Counted from the stretch's first letter, positions 15,077 to 20,494 are shown. The stretch is 64,000 nucleotides of DNA from Bacillota bacterium (GCA_029101005.1 JAQXQE010000015.1:58720-122719); one strand, 5' to 3'. Notes: generated by a model not told the origin, from the sequence alone. Made by a program: numbers and translations.

Positions 15077-16465
15077 CTAATCCTCGTAAGTCTTTCTAAG
15101 GATGTAGAATCCGTCCTCGAGTGCATCGATGATTATGTTACCTCTATCGTCTACTACAACATCCTCTGTTGATGCCAGATGTGGTCCCGGGAATGGGAAG
15201 AATCTGTGTGTTGGATTTGGAGGGATGAAGTATGCCTTCTCCTTGATGTAGTATGGATCTGAAACATCGTAGATTCTAAGACCTGCGTGGAAGTAGCAGT
15301 TGTATACAACATCTGTTCTCTGCTCCAGCCATGGCTTTCCGTCCATAGGCTCGTGGAGGTTGTGTGGACCGAATGGACCAATTCCTCCGTTGAGGCCGTA
15401 TGTATTGAAGTTTGGTGCCGGGAAGTCCTCTGGAACTTCTGGATATGGGAACTGTGCAATCATTACAGGATTTGTTGGATCACTTACATCTACCATATGG
15501 ATGTTGTTCATTGCCTGCGGCTTGTTAAGTGTTCCCTCTGGGAAGAATCCGTATCTCTCACCCTCGTTTGTAACAACACAGAGATTTCTTCCCTTCAACG
15601 GAAGAGCTGTGTGTGTTCTTGCTCCAGCGAGGTGGCTTGAGAATGCAGGCATGAACTTGAGATTACCAAGTGCCTTAGGTCTCTTTGGGTTCTCAACGTC
15701 CACGATCATAAGACCATCTCCACAGTATCCCATATATGCCTTTCCATCCATTACGAATGGAGGTCCATGCAGCCAACCCTTGTCCATGAAGTTAGGATTA
15801 TGTGGCTCCTGGTGATTAACTGTTCTGCCAGGTACACCATCAACATACTGGTGTGGCGCCCACCATCTACCCTCCTCATAAGGATTTGTTGGATCTGAGA
15901 TATTGATGATTCTGTAGATAAGACCCTCGAACTCATCAGCCTCACATGACAGATGTACGTAATCTCCACCGTTGTACATGAATCTGTGAACACCCATTGA
16001 ATGTGGAACTCCGCAGTCCCAGTATGAGAGGAACTTAGGATTCTCTGGATCCTCCTTAAGGCTGTAGATTCTGATGCCCTGCTCTGACTTGAGCTCTGAG
16101 AGTCTGTCACCTACGAGGGCTCCAGGACCAGCTCCTGATGTCATAGCGAGGATCATCAGATCATCAGCAATCTGAATCTTAGGGATAGATGTTGTTGGCA
16201 TCTCCTCAACATCGAATGGTACGAATTTCTTAATAAACTTTGGATTTTTTGGGTCAGTTACATCACTGATCATAACACCTACTCCGTTAGGACCTGCAGC
16301 GAATGCAGCACCGTAGAGAAGATATCTTCCATCCTCAGTCTTATAAAGAGCCATTTGGAACATTCCACATGTACCATCCATGTCACAATATGAGAGTACC
16401 TCGAGGTTTTTTATATAACCGTCGTTACCCTCACCTTTTGAATAAAAGTACTTTCCGTTACCCAT
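15077..16465 (-). CDS. LVIVD-repeat beta-propeller protein, function unknown
   Basis: 462 aa with six recurring hydrophobic-strand plus D-P-x-N-P blocks: MISDVTDPKNPKF, IRIYSLKEDPENPKF, YRIINISDPTNPYE, LMIVDVENPKRPKA, IHMVDVSDPTNPVM and LRIYDVSDPYYIK. It has no signal peptide and is the last gene of the chalcone-isomerase operon. Confidence 0.7.
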   Translation of the reverse strand: MGNGKYFYSKGEGNDGYIKNLEVLSYCDMDGTCGMFQMALYKTEDGRYLLYGAAFAAGPNGVGVMISDVTDPKNPKFIKKFVPFDVEEMPTTSIPKIQIADDLMILAMTSGAGPGALVGDRLSELKSEQGIRIYSLKEDPENPKFLSYWDCGVPHSMGVHRFMYNGGDYVHLSCEADEFEGLIYRIINISDPTNPYEEGRWWAPHQYVDGVPGRTVNHQEPHNPNFMDKGWLHGPPFVMDGKAYMGYCGDGLMIVDVENPKRPKALGNLKFMPAFSSHLAGARTHTALPLKGRNLCVVTNEGERYGFFPEGTLNKPQAMNNIHMVDVSDPTNPVMIAQFPYPEVPEDFPAPNFNTYGLNGGIGPFGPHNLHEPMDGKPWLEQRTDVVYNCYFHAGLRIYDVSDPYYIKEKAYFIPPNPTHRFFPFPGPHLASTEDVVVDDRGNIIIDALEDGFYILRKTYED

Positions 16466-16491: not shown

Positions 16492-16995
16492 TTATCGTCC
16501 ATTAATTACTCTGTGAATTTTATCGAGAAGTGCTCCTACATAATACACACCTACCAGCATGGCAACTCCAATCTGAACTGCCAGATTAGGAAGTCCTGTT
16601 GTGGTGTCGAGATTCATTGTCAACATTGCAATTGCCCATCCGGCAAGCCATGATGGCATATGAATGATATTAGGAATCATGCTCGATATTACAACTACCA
16701 GGAATCCAAGTACAAAGAGCAGCAGGAACAGCAGAATATCTGGATTAAGTGTATGATTATTAACCATGGCAAATGTAGCAATCAATGACCAGCTGTCACC
16801 TGCCAGATAACCAAGAGCTATCTTATGTGCATCTTCGAACTTGTTTCCATTAGTTGCATATATACCTGCACAAATAAGTGCAATTGGACCAACGCTTACG
16901 CCTATATAAGGGCTTGCAACTGCCCATAAGGGAGGAAGAATTCCTATGAGCAGAGCAAGCGTGATGATTTCTTTGTTAATCGTATTACCCTTCAT
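16492..16995 (-). CDS. Small polytopic membrane protein (DUF1097-like)
   Basis: 167 aa with about five predicted TM helices. It starts 4 nt after the chalcone isomerase stop. The family assignment is from memory only. Confidence 0.5.
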   Translation of the reverse strand: MKGNTINKEIITLALLIGILPPLWAVASPYIGVSVGPIALICAGIYATNGNKFEDAHKIALGYLAGDSWSLIATFAMVNNHTLNPDILLFLLLFVLGFLVVVISSMIPNIIHMPSWLAGWAIAMLTMNLDTTTGLPNLAVQIGVAMLVGVYYVGALLDKIHRVINGR

Positions 16996-16999
16996 TGGA

Positions 17000-17851
17000 C
17001 TATCTCATTGTGATATATCCGCGGTAATTTGTAAGATTGTTGAATGCTGTGTAATCAGCAACAGCTGTTGAGATTACGTTATGTCTTGGCTTGAGGTATG
17101 GGAATGTATCTGTCATAGCCCACTCAGGCTTTCTGATTGACTTAACATCCTCTACGAATACCTTCTCCCACTCTGACTGGCATCCAACCCAGATCTCAAG
17201 AGCCCAATCCATTACACAGCCGTTAATGTCCTTCTTAACAGCACTTGCAAGGATTCTTGTAACCTCTGGAGCAGCCTCGAATACTGGAATAACCTCCTCG
17301 AAAAGCCACTTCTCACCTTCTGCCTTATCAACACCCTCCGGGAATCCGATAGCCATATTGAAACGATAGTTTGCACCATCCTCAATTGTGCGACCCTTAC
17401 CCTTGATGTCCTTCTCCCACCACATTGGGAGGAATGCGAAGATAAATGGGTTACCTGCAGCATCATTTGTCTGACGAGCAGTGTTACCGGCATCTCCGTC
17501 TGACTCAATCTGTCCGTGACCAAGCGCTGTCTCTGGAAGGTTACCCTGCCATACGAGAACATCCAGTGGGAATGTCTCCTGAAGAGCCTTAATTCCGAGT
17601 CTTGGATCGAGGTCGCTTACGAGCCAGTGATGCTCTGTAAGCTGCATTCTTGCATAACCGTAGTTGTCAGCGCCTGTTGGCATCGGGAATGCTGGATAGA
17701 AAGCATACTTAGTTACATATGGCTCGAACTGAGAAATGCTCTCTGGAATATGTGTCTTGTGAAGCCATCTCTGAAGCTTAGGTCTGTAGTCCTCCTTAGC
17801 GCAGTCTACATAGATAAGACTTCTCATTGGCTCAAATTTGAAATCTGCCAT
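17000..17851 (-). CDS. chi: Bacterial-type chalcone isomerase
   Basis: 283 aa. The N-terminus MADFKFEPMRSLIYVDC, the C-terminus NYRGYITMR and internal blocks match my recollection of the Eubacterium ramulus CHI sequence (about 282 aa). The internal blocks are GYARMQLTEHHWLVSDLDPRL, GNPFIFAFLPMWWEKD, GRTIEDGANYRFNM, FPEGVDKAEGEKWLFE and ASAVKKDINGCVMDW. Confidence 0.85.
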   Translation of the reverse strand: MADFKFEPMRSLIYVDCAKEDYRPKLQRWLHKTHIPESISQFEPYVTKYAFYPAFPMPTGADNYGYARMQLTEHHWLVSDLDPRLGIKALQETFPLDVLVWQGNLPETALGHGQIESDGDAGNTARQTNDAAGNPFIFAFLPMWWEKDIKGKGRTIEDGANYRFNMAIGFPEGVDKAEGEKWLFEEVIPVFEAAPEVTRILASAVKKDINGCVMDWALEIWVGCQSEWEKVFVEDVKSIRKPEWAMTDTFPYLKPRHNVISTAVADYTAFNNLTNYRGYITMR

Positions 17852-17945
17852 TGTTTCACCTCTTTATTTAACTTACCACTAACGACTAGCATCAATTTGC
17901 TAGTCGTCAGTGTGATTATAACGAAATGAGTATGATTAGTATGTA

Positions 17946-18929
17946 TTAGTTCTTTGATGGAGCTGGTGTTGGCTCAATAACCTCTGTGTAGTGCTTCTTT
18001 CTAGCCTGGAACTCTGGATCCTTGAAGAGGTTCATGAGTCTTCCCTCGTTCTCAAAGATGTCCTGACCGTGAAGAGCTTTTCCTGAGAGGATATCATGAG
18101 CGTGGAACTCTGTAGCTGGGTCGAATGAGAACTTGATAGCTCCGTCTACAACCTTGAGCTCGCCTCTGAGTCCGCAAAGCTCGCACTCTACTGTTGTTGT
18201 TCCTGGGAATGCATAGAATGCGTTACCGTGACAGTGTGGGCAAGCGCAGTCAGCACCCTTCCAGTAATCAAGCTTGTCATTCTGCTCGTCGAAGATCATG
18301 AGGTTCTTGTCTATCATATCCTGAGCAGCCTCTACGAGGTTTCTTCCAATCTCCTGCATTCTAGCAACCTTGTCATCCTGCATGATGATGTCCTTACCCC
18401 ATGAGAAGAACTCGTTGTTAACAACCTTCCAACCAGGGCTCATAGCGAGCATAGCGTGGTCAGCCTCTGTTCTTACAGCCCAGTCTGATCCACCAACTCC
18501 TACGAATGAGATAGCCTTCTGCTTGAAGTATCTCATGTTTAGTGGCTCCTTACCCTGCTCAGCGAGCTTCTCCTGAAGTCCGAGGAGCATACCTGTGTCG
18601 TGTCCAGGACCCATTCTGTCGCAAATTGTCTTGAACATTCCGCTGCATCCTGACTCGTAGATTGGGTCTACGAAGAGAACTCCGTCAGCCTCAACCATCT
18701 TCTCGTAGAGAGCTGAGAAATCATCCTTTCTTGTGCAGATCATTCCCTTACCCATTACGAGACCTCTTGAACAAGCTACACAACCTGTGCACTGCTCGAT
18801 GTTCCAGTCGAATACGTGGATGAACTCGATCTCAGCGCCAAGCTTCTTAGCCTCCTCGAGTGCGATACGACACATAGTATCGTTATTACCGTTCTTTGTA
18901 CCTGATGTTGAAATTCCGAGAATCTTCAT
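17946..18929 (-). CDS. Flavodoxin-like NAD(P)H-dependent FMN reductase with Cys-rich insert and C-terminal CxxC...CxxC ribbon (candidate flavonoid ene-reductase)
   Basis: MKILGISTSGTKNGNNDT is a flavodoxin-fold N-terminus. CTGCVAC is a compact Cys motif as in iron-sulfur flavoproteins. The C-terminal CACPHCHG...ECELCG is a zinc-ribbon-like pair. Confidence 0.7.
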   Translation of the reverse strand: MKILGISTSGTKNGNNDTMCRIALEEAKKLGAEIEFIHVFDWNIEQCTGCVACSRGLVMGKGMICTRKDDFSALYEKMVEADGVLFVDPIYESGCSGMFKTICDRMGPGHDTGMLLGLQEKLAEQGKEPLNMRYFKQKAISFVGVGGSDWAVRTEADHAMLAMSPGWKVVNNEFFSWGKDIIMQDDKVARMQEIGRNLVEAAQDMIDKNLMIFDEQNDKLDYWKGADCACPHCHGNAFYAFPGTTTVECELCGLRGELKVVDGAIKFSFDPATEFHAHDILSGKALHGQDIFENEGRLMNLFKDPEFQARKKHYTEVIEPTPAPSKN

Positions 18930-19009
18930 TGTTTGATTTCCTCCTACTAATTACTTACCATTATATATTTTTAATGAAAAAACAACCATTGTTATATCTA
19001 ATCTTTCGA

Positions 19010-19477
19010 TTAGTGCTGCTCTGGAGCTGGCTCGTTGCAGATCTTTCTTGAGAGCTTGTCAGCTACAGGGTTCATAAGGAATGCCACGATGAATGCTACA
19101 ACGTAAGCTGGAATGAATCCTGTGATTGTTCCCATAACGAATGCGATTACTGGAGCATGTCCGATTACGAGTGTTCCAACAGCTGTCATAATGATGTCAA
19201 GAATTACTGTGAATACGAGTGAAATTACTGCATTAACCATCAGACCGAACTTCAGTGTTCCTGGCTGTGCGTGCTTAGCTGCGAAGTCAAATCCCCACTT
19301 GCCGCATGGAAGGAAGTTTACGAAGAATGTGATTACATATGCAAGTATTGACATTGCGATGAATCCTGGAAGATTCAGTGAACCTGAGAGTGTCATCATA
19401 AGAAGTGTGATGATGATTGACAGTGGAAGGTCCATAATCAGTGCATATACTGCTGTAAGTTTAGCGCTCTTTCTCAT
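19010..19477 (-). CDS. Small 4-TM membrane protein with internal two-helix duplication (DUF2798-like)
   Basis: 155 aa; two similar 2-TM halves are visible. It is the first gene after the LysR terminator/operator region and has a good RBS (AAAGGAG). Confidence 0.5.
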   Translation of the reverse strand: MRKSAKLTAVYALIMDLPLSIIITLLMMTLSGSLNLPGFIAMSILAYVITFFVNFLPCGKWGFDFAAKHAQPGTLKFGLMVNAVISLVFTVILDIIMTAVGTLVIGHAPVIAFVMGTITGFIPAYVVAFIVAFLMNPVADKLSRKICNEPAPEQH

Positions 19478-19508: not shown

Positions 19509-19552
19509 AAAAAAAATACAAGTTTTGATAACTAAAGTTTAGTCATCAAAAC
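19509..19552 (-). terminator. Hairpin plus T8 tract after lysR (terminator or attenuator)
   Basis: The minus strand reads GTTTTGATgACTAAactTTAGTtATCAAAAC followed by TTGTATTTTTTTT. The stem is AT-rich. Confidence 0.45.
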
Positions 19553-19587
19553 CTGCTTTGTACAATTCCTATCCGCTTATGCACTTC

Positions 19588-19612: not shown

Positions 19613-20494
19613 CTATTGATTATGCTTATACGTCTCCCTCAATACATCGGCCATATATCTAGCAACTGGATCATCATTACTCCTCATAATAAGCACCGAA
19701 ATTGTATCTTTCGAATCAAGTGGAACCACACCAATATCTTCAGCATTGTTAGCCCACACCCACTCGTCAGTAATGGCTACACCCATTCCATTTCTTACGC
19801 ATGTAATCATCGACTCATGGTTTGGAACAAACTGCAGAGTTGGCATGAAGTTATAAGACTGCATGCAATCTGAAATTGCCTTAGAAACCATCCTATCTAC
19901 TACGCTGTATGGTGCGAAGAATGGTACATCCTTGAAATCATATGCTGTATATGGCTCATAAGGAAAAGTTCTAGTAGAGTAGATTAAAGTCTTACCAACA
20001 TCGCAGATATCCAATGTCTCAATCTCACCGATATCGTGTACTGAATTTTTCATCGAAACAGCAATATCGAGTCCGTCGGTAAGAAGGAATGTAGACAGCT
20101 CCTTAATACCACAGCAGTTGATAATTACCTTGATGTCAGGATACACTTCGTTGAACTTGCTGATAATATTCGGAACATAGTCATAGAGATCCCAGCCCTC
20201 GAGAAAACCAAGTTTGATTACTCTCTCAGTCTTCTTCTCGAGCGCAAGTGCTTCTTTCTTCGTCCTGATGAATTCCGCCTTAAACTCTTTGAACATCTCA
20301 TAGTAGAGCTTACCAGCGTCAGTAAGTTCAGTTTTCTTATTGTTACGTTTGAATAGCTTAACGCCAAGTTCCCTCTCCATAACAGCAATCTGTCTTGAAA
20401 TTGCCGGCTGAGAGACGAATAACTCCTCTGATGTCTTTGTAAAACTCAGATTAGTGGCTACCGCCATAAAGTAATCTATCTGTACTTCATTCAT
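19613..20494 (-). CDS. LysR-family transcriptional regulator
   Basis: N-terminal wHTH FTKTSEELFVSQPAISRQIAVMERELGVKLFKR followed by a periplasmic-binding-like effector domain; 293 aa. Confidence 0.9.
   Translation of the reverse strand: MNEVQIDYFMAVATNLSFTKTSEELFVSQPAISRQIAVMERELGVKLFKRNNKKTELTDAGKLYYEMFKEFKAEFIRTKKEALALEKKTERVIKLGFLEGWDLYDYVPNIISKFNEVYPDIKVIINCCGIKELSTFLLTDGLDIAVSMKNSVHDIGEIETLDICDVGKTLIYSTRTFPYEPYTAYDFKDVPFFAPYSVVDRMVSKAISDCMQSYNFMPTLQFVPNHESMITCVRNGMGVAITDEWVWANNAEDIGVVPLDSKDTISVLIMRSNDDPVARYMADVLRETYKHNQ

What the first reader, a model, noticed from the sequence alone, without database searches (positions are those of the whole stretch)
17946..18929. Flavodoxin-like FMN reductase with Cys cluster and zinc-ribbon tail next to chi: candidate FLR-class ene-reductase
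The N-terminus MKILGISTSGTKNGNNDT is a classic NAD(P)H-dependent FMN-reductase/flavodoxin fold. It is followed by a compact CTGCVAC...C motif as in iron-sulfur flavoproteins. The C-terminal third carries CACPHCHG-x17-CELCG, a rubredoxin/zinc-ribbon-like pair. I recall that the F. plautii flavone reductase (FLR) was reported as a previously unrecognised ene-reductase class encoded near chi, but I cannot confirm from memory that FLR has this fold. The adjacency suggests this protein supplies the C2-C3 reduction that feeds CHI, or a reductive C-ring cleavage.
Basis: inference. Interest (0 to 1): 0.6.

Follow-up and report, generated by a model that had tools for sequence, protein, structure and literature searches.

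The report
Flavone reductase (FLR) orthologue beside chi
This gene encodes an ordinary member of the flavone reductase (FLR) family, the gut-bacterial flavin enzyme that starts flavone and flavonol breakdown, but its eight family-invariant cysteines suggest the family holds an unreported iron-sulfur cluster and a zinc site, which could explain how it receives electrons.

Summary
The ORF is real: minus strand, 17946-18929, 327 aa, with a strong Shine-Dalgarno sequence.

It is an orthologue of Flavonifractor plautii flavone reductase FLR (PDB 7D38/39/3A/3B):
- The match is full length (E 2.3e-79, 46% identity).
- The AlphaFold model superposes on 7D38 (TM 0.82/0.92).
- The four residues whose mutation most reduced or abolished FLR activity are kept (G107, W150, H287, I291).
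- It falls in the same well-supported clade as FLR.
- It lies directly upstream of chi, as in F. plautii and Eubacterium ramulus (53 of 80 related loci).

The host is a small-genome Anaerovoracaceae bacterium.

Its NAD(P)H dependence is not: published FLR cannot use NAD(P)H directly.

Both cysteine motifs exist. They are nearly invariant across the family down to about 25% identity. The first aligns column for column with the CX2CX2CX5C motif of two small iron-sulfur-flavoprotein-type paralogues in the same genome.

The FLR paper never mentions these cysteines. Its protein was made aerobically, and its crystals have no room for a cluster. FLR's electron donor is still called unknown in 2026.

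Verdict: a new member of a known kind. It comes with a testable family-wide hypothesis: ferredoxin to [4Fe-4S] to FMN.

The scan has met this family before on other DNA (e1-2885015, e1-4093743).

The parts
17946..18929 (-). flr: 327-aa flavone reductase (FLR) orthologue; stop codon at 17946-17948
   Evidence: ORF; phmmer against PDB gives 7d38_A at E 2.3e-79; Foldseek gives 7d38 at E 3.8e-31, TM 0.82/0.92; same clade as F. plautii FLR
18940..18945 (-). Shine-Dalgarno AGGAGG, 10 nt before the flr ATG
   Evidence: read directly from the sequence
18309..18929 (-). N-terminal flavodoxin-like FMN-binding domain (residues 1-207)
   Evidence: Pfam FMN_red, E 7.5e-21; alternating strand-helix pattern in the AF2 model; FMN-contact residues N16, I90, E92, D104, V145, G147, S148 and W150 are conserved with FLR
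18735..18791 (-). Cys tetrad 1 (C47-x2-C50-x2-C53-x11-C65): candidate [4Fe-4S] site of the iron-sulfur-flavoprotein (Isf) type
   Evidence: Invariant in A1; all four Cys present in 60 of 67 family sequences; same alignment columns as the CX2CX2CX5C of two Isf-type paralogues in the own genome
18174..18242 (-). Cys tetrad 2 (C230-x2-C233-x15-C249-x2-C252): zinc-ribbon-like knuckle pair in C-terminal subdomain 1
   Evidence: Invariant in A1; all four Cys present in 66 of 67 family sequences; the family profile hits the TFIIB zinc ribbon 1pft at E 0.0025 and ribosomal protein S27e ribbons over this stretch; four beta-strands in the model
17949..18122 (-). C-terminal helical arm (residues 270-327) carrying substrate-binding H287 and I291
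   Evidence: Aligned to FLR H271 and I275; helices 281-301 and 305-317 in the model; the role of this arm is described in PMC7862272
17877..17912 (-). 15-bp hairpin in the 94-nt flr-chi spacer, with no U-tract after it
   Evidence: RNA fold of -31.6 kcal/mol, z -6.25; a strong hairpin of unrelated sequence sits at the same place in six related loci
17000..17851 (-). chi: bacterial chalcone isomerase, the next enzyme of the pathway
   Evidence: Pfam Chalcone_N, E 1.1e-45; 77% identical to the CHI beside flr in E. ramulus ATCC 29099
16492..16995 (-). DUF1097 membrane protein, operon member
   Evidence: Pfam DUF1097, E 3.6e-17; found with flr in 29 of 80 loci
15077..16465 (-). LVIVD beta-propeller protein, last gene of the operon (subject of another report)
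   Evidence: Pfam LVIVD; found with flr-chi in 36 of 80 loci; no PDB sequence hit
19010..19477 (-). 155-aa membrane protein directly upstream of flr
   Evidence: ORF; no Pfam or NCBIfam family; found with flr in 33 of 80 loci
19613..20494 (-). LysR-type regulator at the head of the locus
   Evidence: Pfam HTH_1 and LysR_substrate; found with flr in 40 of 80 loci; a terminator-like hairpin at 19518-19556 separates it from the structural genes

Best explanation
The gene encodes the flavone/flavonol reductase (FLR) of an Anaerovoracaceae gut or rumen bacterium. By homology, the enzyme is a homodimeric FMN protein. The flavone A/C rings stack between the isoalloxazine of one subunit and Ile291/His287 on the C-terminal arm of the other. 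Reduced FMN passes a hydride to C2, and C3 takes a proton from solvent. Apigenin-type flavones become flavanones and quercetin-type flavonols become flavanonols. The adjacent CHI then isomerises the flavanones or ring-contracts the flavanonols. The steps shown here are orthology, fold, conservation of the tested active-site residues, and conserved flr-chi linkage. The chemistry and substrates are inferred from F. plautii FLR. One further step is inferred only from sequence. Electrons would reach FMN from reduced ferredoxin, not from NAD(P)H, through a [4Fe-4S] cluster held by C47/C50/C53/C65. The C230/C233/C249/C252 ribbon would bind zinc and build the dimer interface. My confidence in that last part is about 0.5.
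For: - Sequence: the only PDB hit is FLR, full length, at E 2.3e-79. A family profile raises this to 1.7e-103, and the next hit is only 1.6e-07. Identity is 46.4% over 304 columns.
- Residues: G106, W149, H271 and I275, whose mutants showed reduced or abolished activity, are all conserved.
- Structure: the AF2 model has pLDDT 93.9. Foldseek ranks 7d38 'flavone reductase' first at TM 0.82/0.92, and all other hits have TM 0.46 or less.
- Phylogeny: the protein sits in the same clade as FLR with support 100/99 and 100/100.
- Synteny: flr lies directly upstream of chi in 53 of 80 related loci, including E. ramulus ATCC 29099. In F. plautii the two genes carry consecutive locus tags.
- Functional range: the genetically validated C. 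ljungdahlii FLR is only 29.7% identical to F. plautii FLR, so this protein lies well inside the validated range.
- Electron-entry step: both Cys tetrads are invariant. Tetrad 1 shares alignment columns with Isf-type CX2CX2CX5C paralogues. The Isf motif is described as the [4Fe-4S] ligand set (PMC3164229). FLR cannot use NAD(P)H and needed Fre plus free FMN. Its donor was still listed as unknown in 2026 (PMC13515148). The genome encodes a 55-aa 2x[4Fe-4S] ferredoxin and seven 2-oxoacid:ferredoxin oxidoreductase hits.
Against: - No activity data exist for this protein or for any Anaerovoracaceae FLR.
- Some FLR contact residues differ: M10 to T, S14 to N, K92 to S, W72 to A, K282 to L. Thr279, proposed to activate the substrate, is Glu295 here.
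- A second F. plautii FLR homologue showed no apigenin-reducing activity (PMC8398226), and C. butyricum cultures reduced apigenin but not flavonols. Family membership therefore does not fix the substrate.
- Against the cluster: purified FLR showed only flavin peaks. Its crystals hold FMN, the substrate and 3 further ligand atoms, which is too few for a cluster. It was active without any cluster.
- The Cys3-Cys4 spacer is 11 residues, outside the Isf range of 5-7.
Confidence: 0.85

Rival explanations
1. It is an FLR-family paralogue whose true substrate is another activated alkene or polyphenol, not flavones or flavonols. Candidates include aurones, chalcones and other plant enones.
For: The family is large: 351 cluster representatives at E 1e-10 or better. 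27 of 80 close loci have no chi nearby. One F. plautii homologue was inactive on apigenin. Thr279 and Lys282 are not conserved.
Against: The protein sits in the F. plautii FLR clade. It keeps all four activity-critical residues. It lies directly upstream of chi, which acts on FLR's products.
Confidence: 0.1
2. It is a generic NAD(P)H-dependent FMN or quinone reductase, or an Isf-like O2/H2O2-detoxifying flavoprotein. This is what database names such as 'flavodoxin family protein' and 'NAD(P)H-dependent oxidoreductase' imply.
For: Pfam FMN_red matches. Source names of homologues say so. The fold resembles WrbA, SsuE and azoreductases. It has an Isf-like Cys motif.
Against: Those proteins cover only the N-terminal 200 residues, at TM 0.46 or less. 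The 120-residue C-terminal ribbon and arm, which forms the flavone pocket in FLR, is fully conserved here. WrbA has no flavone activity and FLR has no NAD(P)H activity.
Confidence: 0.03
3. [quoted passage not shown] This is the reader's alternative.
For: It is next to chi. The operon itself has no Fcr-type gene.
Against: The known cleaving reductase Fcr is an OYE/Fe-S/FAD enzyme of unrelated fold. One such 704-aa gene exists elsewhere in this genome. FLR yields naringenin, not ring-opened products.
Confidence: 0.02

Closest known systems
Flavone reductase FLR of Flavonifractor plautii ATCC 49531 (KGF53654, A4U99_05915; PDB 7D38, 7D39, 7D3A, 7D3B; Yang et al. 2021, PMC7862272)
   Same: - It has the same three-part architecture: a flavodoxin-like FMN domain, a four-stranded Cys4 ribbon and a bent helical arm.
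- Identity is 46% over the full length.
- G107, W150, H287 and I291 are conserved, as are most FMN contacts.
- Both Cys tetrads are shared.
- The gene lies directly upstream of chi.
   Different: - A 14-residue insertion sits in the linker before the ribbon (about residues 208-221; pLDDT 67).
- Thr279 is Glu here, Lys282 is Leu and Trp72 is Ala.
- The host is an Anaerovoracaceae bacterium with a 1.6-Mb genome.
- The operon also holds two small membrane proteins and an LVIVD propeller, and the genome has no phloretin hydrolase.
FLR homologue beside chi in Eubacterium ramulus ATCC 29099 (locus L033)
   Same: It is 73% identical. The order is flr then chi, with a spacer of about 95 nt that contains a hairpin. 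Its CHI is 77% identical to the window's.
   Different: The E. ramulus locus has no LysR, 155-aa membrane protein, DUF1097 or LVIVD gene within 10 kb. E. ramulus has phloretin hydrolase genes.
Iron-sulfur flavoproteins (Isf; prototype from Methanosarcina thermophila)
   Same: The N-domain has the FMN_red fold. A CX2CX2C...C motif follows strand 2 in the same alignment columns as in two Isf-type paralogues of this genome. The KDD and DR motifs are conserved.
   Different: Isf proteins are single-domain and about 180-200 aa long, with a Cys3-Cys4 spacer of 5-7 residues. Here the spacer is 11 and a 120-residue ribbon plus arm is added. Isf proteins reduce O2 and H2O2 rather than flavones (my own knowledge). 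No cluster has been shown in any FLR.
WrbA, SsuE and azoreductase-type NAD(P)H:FMN/quinone oxidoreductases
   Same: They share the flavodoxin-like fold and a dimer-interface FMN site.
   Different: They have no Cys tetrads and no C-terminal ribbon or arm. They use NAD(P)H directly. WrbA does not reduce apigenin.

Membership tests
FLR flavone reductase family | Full-length sequence similarity to F. plautii FLR, including the C-terminal domain | tested here: met
   phmmer E 2.3e-79, query residues 1-321 against FLR 1-305; 46.4% identity
FLR flavone reductase family | FLR fold: flavodoxin-like domain, four-stranded subdomain and bent helical arm | tested here: met
   AF2 model pLDDT 93.9; Foldseek 7d38 at TM 0.82/0.92, rmsd 2.5 A
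FLR flavone reductase family | Residues whose mutation most reduced or abolished activity (G106, W149, H271, I275) | tested here: met
   They correspond to G107, W150, H287 and I291. H287 is invariant, and G107 is present in at least 90% of the family alignment.
FLR flavone reductase family | Thr279-water relay proposed to activate the C4 carbonyl | tested here: not met
   The residue is Glu295 here. The column is variable across the family (E, G, L, M and others), so it does not define the family.
FLR flavone reductase family | C-terminal tail (last 11 residues; Thr305, Pro307) needed for activity | tested here: inconclusive
   A tail of similar length is present, with T321 aligned to T305 and Pro at 322 and 324. 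The stacking partner Trp72 is Ala73 here.
FLR flavone reductase family | Placement in the clade of the characterised enzyme | tested here: met
   IQ-TREE places it in a clade of 9-10 cluster representatives with FLR, support 100/99 and 100/100
FLR flavone reductase family | Genomic linkage to chalcone isomerase | tested here: met
   chi lies 94 nt downstream; the same linkage holds in 53 of 80 loci and in F. plautii
FLR flavone reductase family | Reduction of the flavone/flavonol C2-C3 bond with reduced FMN and no direct NAD(P)H use | not testable with these tools
   This needs an enzyme assay
Iron-sulfur flavoprotein (Isf) family | FMN_red flavodoxin-like domain | tested here: met
   Pfam PF03358, E 7.5e-21
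Iron-sulfur flavoprotein (Isf) family | Compact motif CX2CX2CX5-7C (as given in PMC3164229) | tested here: not met
   The spacing is CX2CX2CX11C here, and mostly 11-12 across the family. The four Cys nevertheless align with the CX2CX2CX5C of two Isf-type paralogues.
Iron-sulfur flavoprotein (Isf) family | Bound [4Fe-4S] cluster | not testable with these tools
   No cluster fits the ligand atom counts of the FLR crystals, but that protein was made aerobically
Zinc ribbon / rubredoxin-like Cys4 domain | Two CxxC knuckles on a small beta-sheet, invariant in the family | tested here: met
   C230, C233, C249 and C252 are invariant; the profile hits the TFIIB ribbon at E 0.0025 and S27e ribbons; strands at 238-268. 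Whether the metal is Zn or Fe was not determined.

The most novel reading that the evidence does not exclude
FLR-family ene-reductases, this one included, are iron-sulfur flavoproteins. An Isf-derived [4Fe-4S] cluster on the invariant CX2CX2CX11C loop would carry electrons from reduced ferredoxin to FMN. A Cys4 zinc (or iron) ribbon would form the dimer interface. On this reading the published enzyme was characterised without its cluster. That would explain why it cannot use NAD(P)H, why it needed an artificial supply of free FMNH2, and why its physiological donor is still unknown.
Probability: 0.5. Interest if true: 0.6.

Novelty: new member of a known kind. Interest (0 to 1): 0.35.

Why it matters
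As a gene call it matters little. It extends the characterised FLR family to Anaerovoracaceae (relatives of Mogibacterium) from gut and rumen. It also corrects database names such as 'flavodoxin family protein' and 'NAD(P)H-dependent oxidoreductase'.

It also marks a compact operon (LysR, membrane protein, flr, chi, DUF1097, LVIVD) in genomes that lack phloretin hydrolase. That operon is a good system for the unresolved flavonol branch of the pathway.

The wider point concerns the eight invariant cysteines, which the FLR literature I could search never discusses. They give a concrete and cheap experiment for the open question of how FLR is reduced in cells. The answer affects any use of flr genes as biomarkers or as biocatalysts for making or degrading flavones.

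Tried and rejected
- The Isf structure and family papers (PMC1112032, PMC100102) are not held. The Isf motif is therefore cited second-hand from PMC3164229, and Isf function rests on my own knowledge.
- The AlphaFold coordinates are not exposed, so I could not measure Cys-Cys distances or the distance from the putative cluster to FMN.
- The family profile found no Isf structure in the PDB at E 1 or better. It gave only a weak hit (E 0.52) to the Fe-S motif region of an OYE-type enzyme, 6l6j. I do not lean on that hit.
- NCBIfam has no FLR model; only sub-threshold hits appeared.
- I considered a rubredoxin-type iron centre for tetrad 2. No rubredoxin was hit while zinc ribbons were, so zinc is favoured but iron is not excluded.
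- I considered whether the operon supplies a redox partner. It holds none, only two small membrane proteins.
- Full-text searches for 'flavone reductase' with iron-sulfur, ferredoxin or 4Fe-4S found no paper linking FLR to a cluster. The library lacks most subscription journals, so absence is not proven.

Full report
**1. Observation**

A 327-aa ORF occupies 17946-18929 on the minus strand. AGGAGG lies 10 nt before its ATG. The quoted N-terminus is exact, and so is the CTGCVAC...C motif (C47, C50, C53, C65). Pfam places FMN_red on residues 1-178 (E 7.5e-21). The downstream ORF at 17000-17851 is a bacterial chalcone isomerase (Chalcone_N, E 1.1e-45).

**2. Identity**

A phmmer search of all PDB sequences returns one hit, 7d38_A. 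It aligns over residues 1-321 against 1-305 at E 2.3e-79. [quoted passage not shown]

Identity is 46.4% over 304 aligned columns. A profile built from 39 diverse relatives scores FLR at E 1.7e-103. The next PDB protein, a WrbA-like protein, scores only 1.6e-07 and covers only the N-terminal 123 positions.

An AlphaFold2 model built on that alignment is confident (mean pLDDT 93.9, pTM 0.90). Foldseek ranks 7d38 'flavone reductase' first (E 3.8e-31, TM 0.82/0.92). Every other hit is a generic FMN reductase covering the N-domain at TM 0.46 or less.

The model's layout matches the published description of FLR. It has an alpha-beta-alpha domain up to about residue 207, four strands at 238-268, and helices at 281-301 and 305-317.

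In a maximum-likelihood tree of 67 family sequences plus two outgroup paralogues, the window protein and F. plautii FLR share a clade of 9-10 cluster representatives. Support is 100/99 and 100/100.

**3. Active site**

The FLR paper reports that most mutants of apigenin-binding residues lost activity. G106A, W149A, H271A and I275A were the most affected, with activity significantly reduced or eliminated. All four residues are conserved here as G107, W150, H287 and I291. H287 is invariant in the family alignment.

| FLR residue | Residue here |
|---|---|
| N15, I89, E91, D103, V144, G146, S147, W149 (FMN contacts) | conserved |
| M10 | T |
| S14 | N |
| K92 | S |
| W72 | A |
| K282 | L |
| T279 | E295 |

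Thr279 was proposed to activate the C4 carbonyl through a water molecule. That column is variable across the family, so the Thr279 relay cannot be a general feature.

**4. Context and host**

The nearest relatives in species-representative genomes are Anaerovoracaceae and Mogibacterium-like genomes from horse, ruminant and human gut. The best match is 90% identical ('Candidatus Crickella merdequi'), and many others are 73-82% identical. The window's own genome is 1.6 Mb and 99.6% complete.

In 80 related loci, chi follows flr in 53. These include E. ramulus ATCC 29099 (FLR 73%, CHI 77%) and E. oxidoreducens. In F. plautii, flr and chi are A4U99_05915 and A4U99_05920.

The fuller operon is LysR, a 155-aa membrane protein, flr, chi, DUF1097 and an LVIVD propeller. 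It recurs in about 30 Anaerovoracaceae loci.

The genome has no phloretin hydrolase (PF18089). The same search finds three hits each in E. ramulus and E. oxidoreducens and none in Mobilibacterium timonense. One OYE/Fe-S/FAD enzyme of the enoate-reductase type lies on another contig. Other agents have already followed up the propeller and chi genes, so I did not pursue them.

**5. How it probably works**

By homology the enzyme is a homodimer with FMN at the interface. The flavone A/C rings lie between the isoalloxazine and Ile291. His287 bonds the 7-OH group. FMNH- transfers a hydride to C2, and C3 is protonated from solvent, giving the (2S)-flavanone. CHI then acts on the product.

The paper shows that FLR cannot use NAD(P)H directly and was assayed with Fre, NADH and 0.5-0.8 mM free FMN. 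A 2026 review still lists electron delivery to FLR as unknown.

**6. The cysteines**

In 67 family sequences down to about 25% identity, all four Cys of tetrad 1 are present in 60 and all four of tetrad 2 in 66. All eight are invariant in the 39-sequence alignment, and F. plautii FLR has them too.

The window's genome also encodes two FMN_red proteins of about 175-180 aa that carry CX2CX2CX5C. This is the compact motif described as the [4Fe-4S] ligand set of iron-sulfur flavoproteins (PMC3164229). In a MAFFT alignment their four Cys fall in the same columns as C47, C50, C53 and C65. FLR simply has a loop six residues longer between the third and fourth Cys. The family spacer is mostly 11-12 residues.

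Tetrad 2 lies in the four-stranded subdomain. The family profile hits the TFIIB zinc ribbon (E 0.0025) and S27e ribbons over exactly this stretch.

The FLR paper's main text and supplement contain no occurrence of 'Cys' or 'zinc', and the main text none of 'Fe-S'. The protein was expressed aerobically in E. coli BL21 and purified in air. It showed only flavin peaks.

The refinement table lists 34, 53, 54 and 55 ligand atoms for the apo, chrysin, apigenin and luteolin structures. By my arithmetic that is FMN (31 atoms), plus the substrate (0, 19, 20 or 21 atoms), plus 3 atoms in every case. There is no room for an 8-atom cluster, but there is room for a single metal ion. Only 290 of the 310 residues of the chain are modelled.

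So the crystals hold no cluster. This fits either loss of an oxygen-labile cluster or its genuine absence.

The genome offers a plausible donor. It encodes a 55-aa 2x[4Fe-4S] ferredoxin and seven 2-oxoacid:ferredoxin oxidoreductase hits, including a 1194-aa PFOR.

I put the chain ferredoxin to [4Fe-4S] to FMN at about 0.5, and a structural zinc ribbon at about 0.75. Full-text searches found no paper that links FLR to a cluster or to ferredoxin, within the limits of the library.

**7. Rivals**

- **A different substrate.** This is the main rival. One F. plautii homologue was inactive on apigenin, and C. butyricum cultures reduced apigenin but not flavonols. Clade placement, residue conservation and chi linkage argue against it.
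- **A generic NAD(P)H:FMN or quinone reductase, or an Isf-like detoxifying protein.** The conserved 120-residue FLR-specific C-terminus argues against this reading.
- **Reductive ring cleavage.** That reaction belongs to the unrelated enzyme Fcr.

**8. Novelty and verdict**

The gene is a new member of a known family, so the finding as posed is correct and ordinary.

The cysteine sites are a family-wide unexplained feature, not something special to this window. Earlier notes of this scan reached the same point on other genomes (e1-2885015, e1-4093743).

I score interest at 0.35. The identification itself is routine. The metal-site hypothesis makes the open electron-donor question directly testable.

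Noticed in passing
window 17000-17851; loci L005-L084: The window's CHI is 77-81% identical to the E. ramulus-type CHI and 86-90% identical to that of its two nearest relatives. It is only 44-50% identical to the CHI in the same operon slot of about 30 other Anaerovoracaceae loci, whose FLR is 73-80% identical. This suggests the chi gene was replaced inside a conserved operon.
   Followed up: partly
window 17877-17912 (minus strand); L005, L006, L007, L013, L027, L033 flr-chi spacers: A 15-bp hairpin sits between flr and chi with no U-tract after it (-31.6 kcal/mol, z -6.25). Six related loci have a strong hairpin of unrelated sequence at the same place. It may be an intra-operon attenuator or an mRNA-stabilising element.
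   Followed up: partly
own genome G000 (whole); G001-G003: No phloretin hydrolase (PF18089) was found in this 99.6%-complete genome or in Mobilibacterium timonense. E. ramulus and E. oxidoreducens have three hits each. The flavone-to-phloretin route therefore cannot be completed here.
   Followed up: partly
G000:C6:95859-96173 (+) and G000:C14:6555-6815 (-): Two small FMN_red proteins of about 175-180 aa carry the classic Isf motif CX2CX2CX5C. They are the only paralogues of the FLR N-domain in this genome.
   Followed up: yes
G000:C2:1039-3153 (+) = L004: A 704-aa OYE plus Fe-S plus FAD enzyme of the BaiCD / bilirubin reductase / enoate reductase type is the only Oxidored_FMN gene in the genome. 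It could be an Fcr-like partner but is not linked to the operon.
   Followed up: partly
loci L057, L063, L065, L066, L067: In Oscillospiraceae and Ruminococcaceae MAG loci an LVIVD propeller homologue (48-51% identity) also lies next to flr-chi, in a different order or orientation. This supports a functional link beyond one family.
   Followed up: no
window residue 295 of the ORF (codon at 18045-18047): FLR Thr279, proposed in the literature to activate the substrate carbonyl through water, is Glu here. The column is highly variable across the family.
   Followed up: partly
window 18960-18965 (minus strand): A perfect TATAAT lies in the 80-nt spacer between the 155-aa membrane gene and flr, about 15 nt upstream of the Shine-Dalgarno sequence. 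Only a weak -35 hexamer accompanies it, and the promoter scan did not flag it.
   Followed up: no
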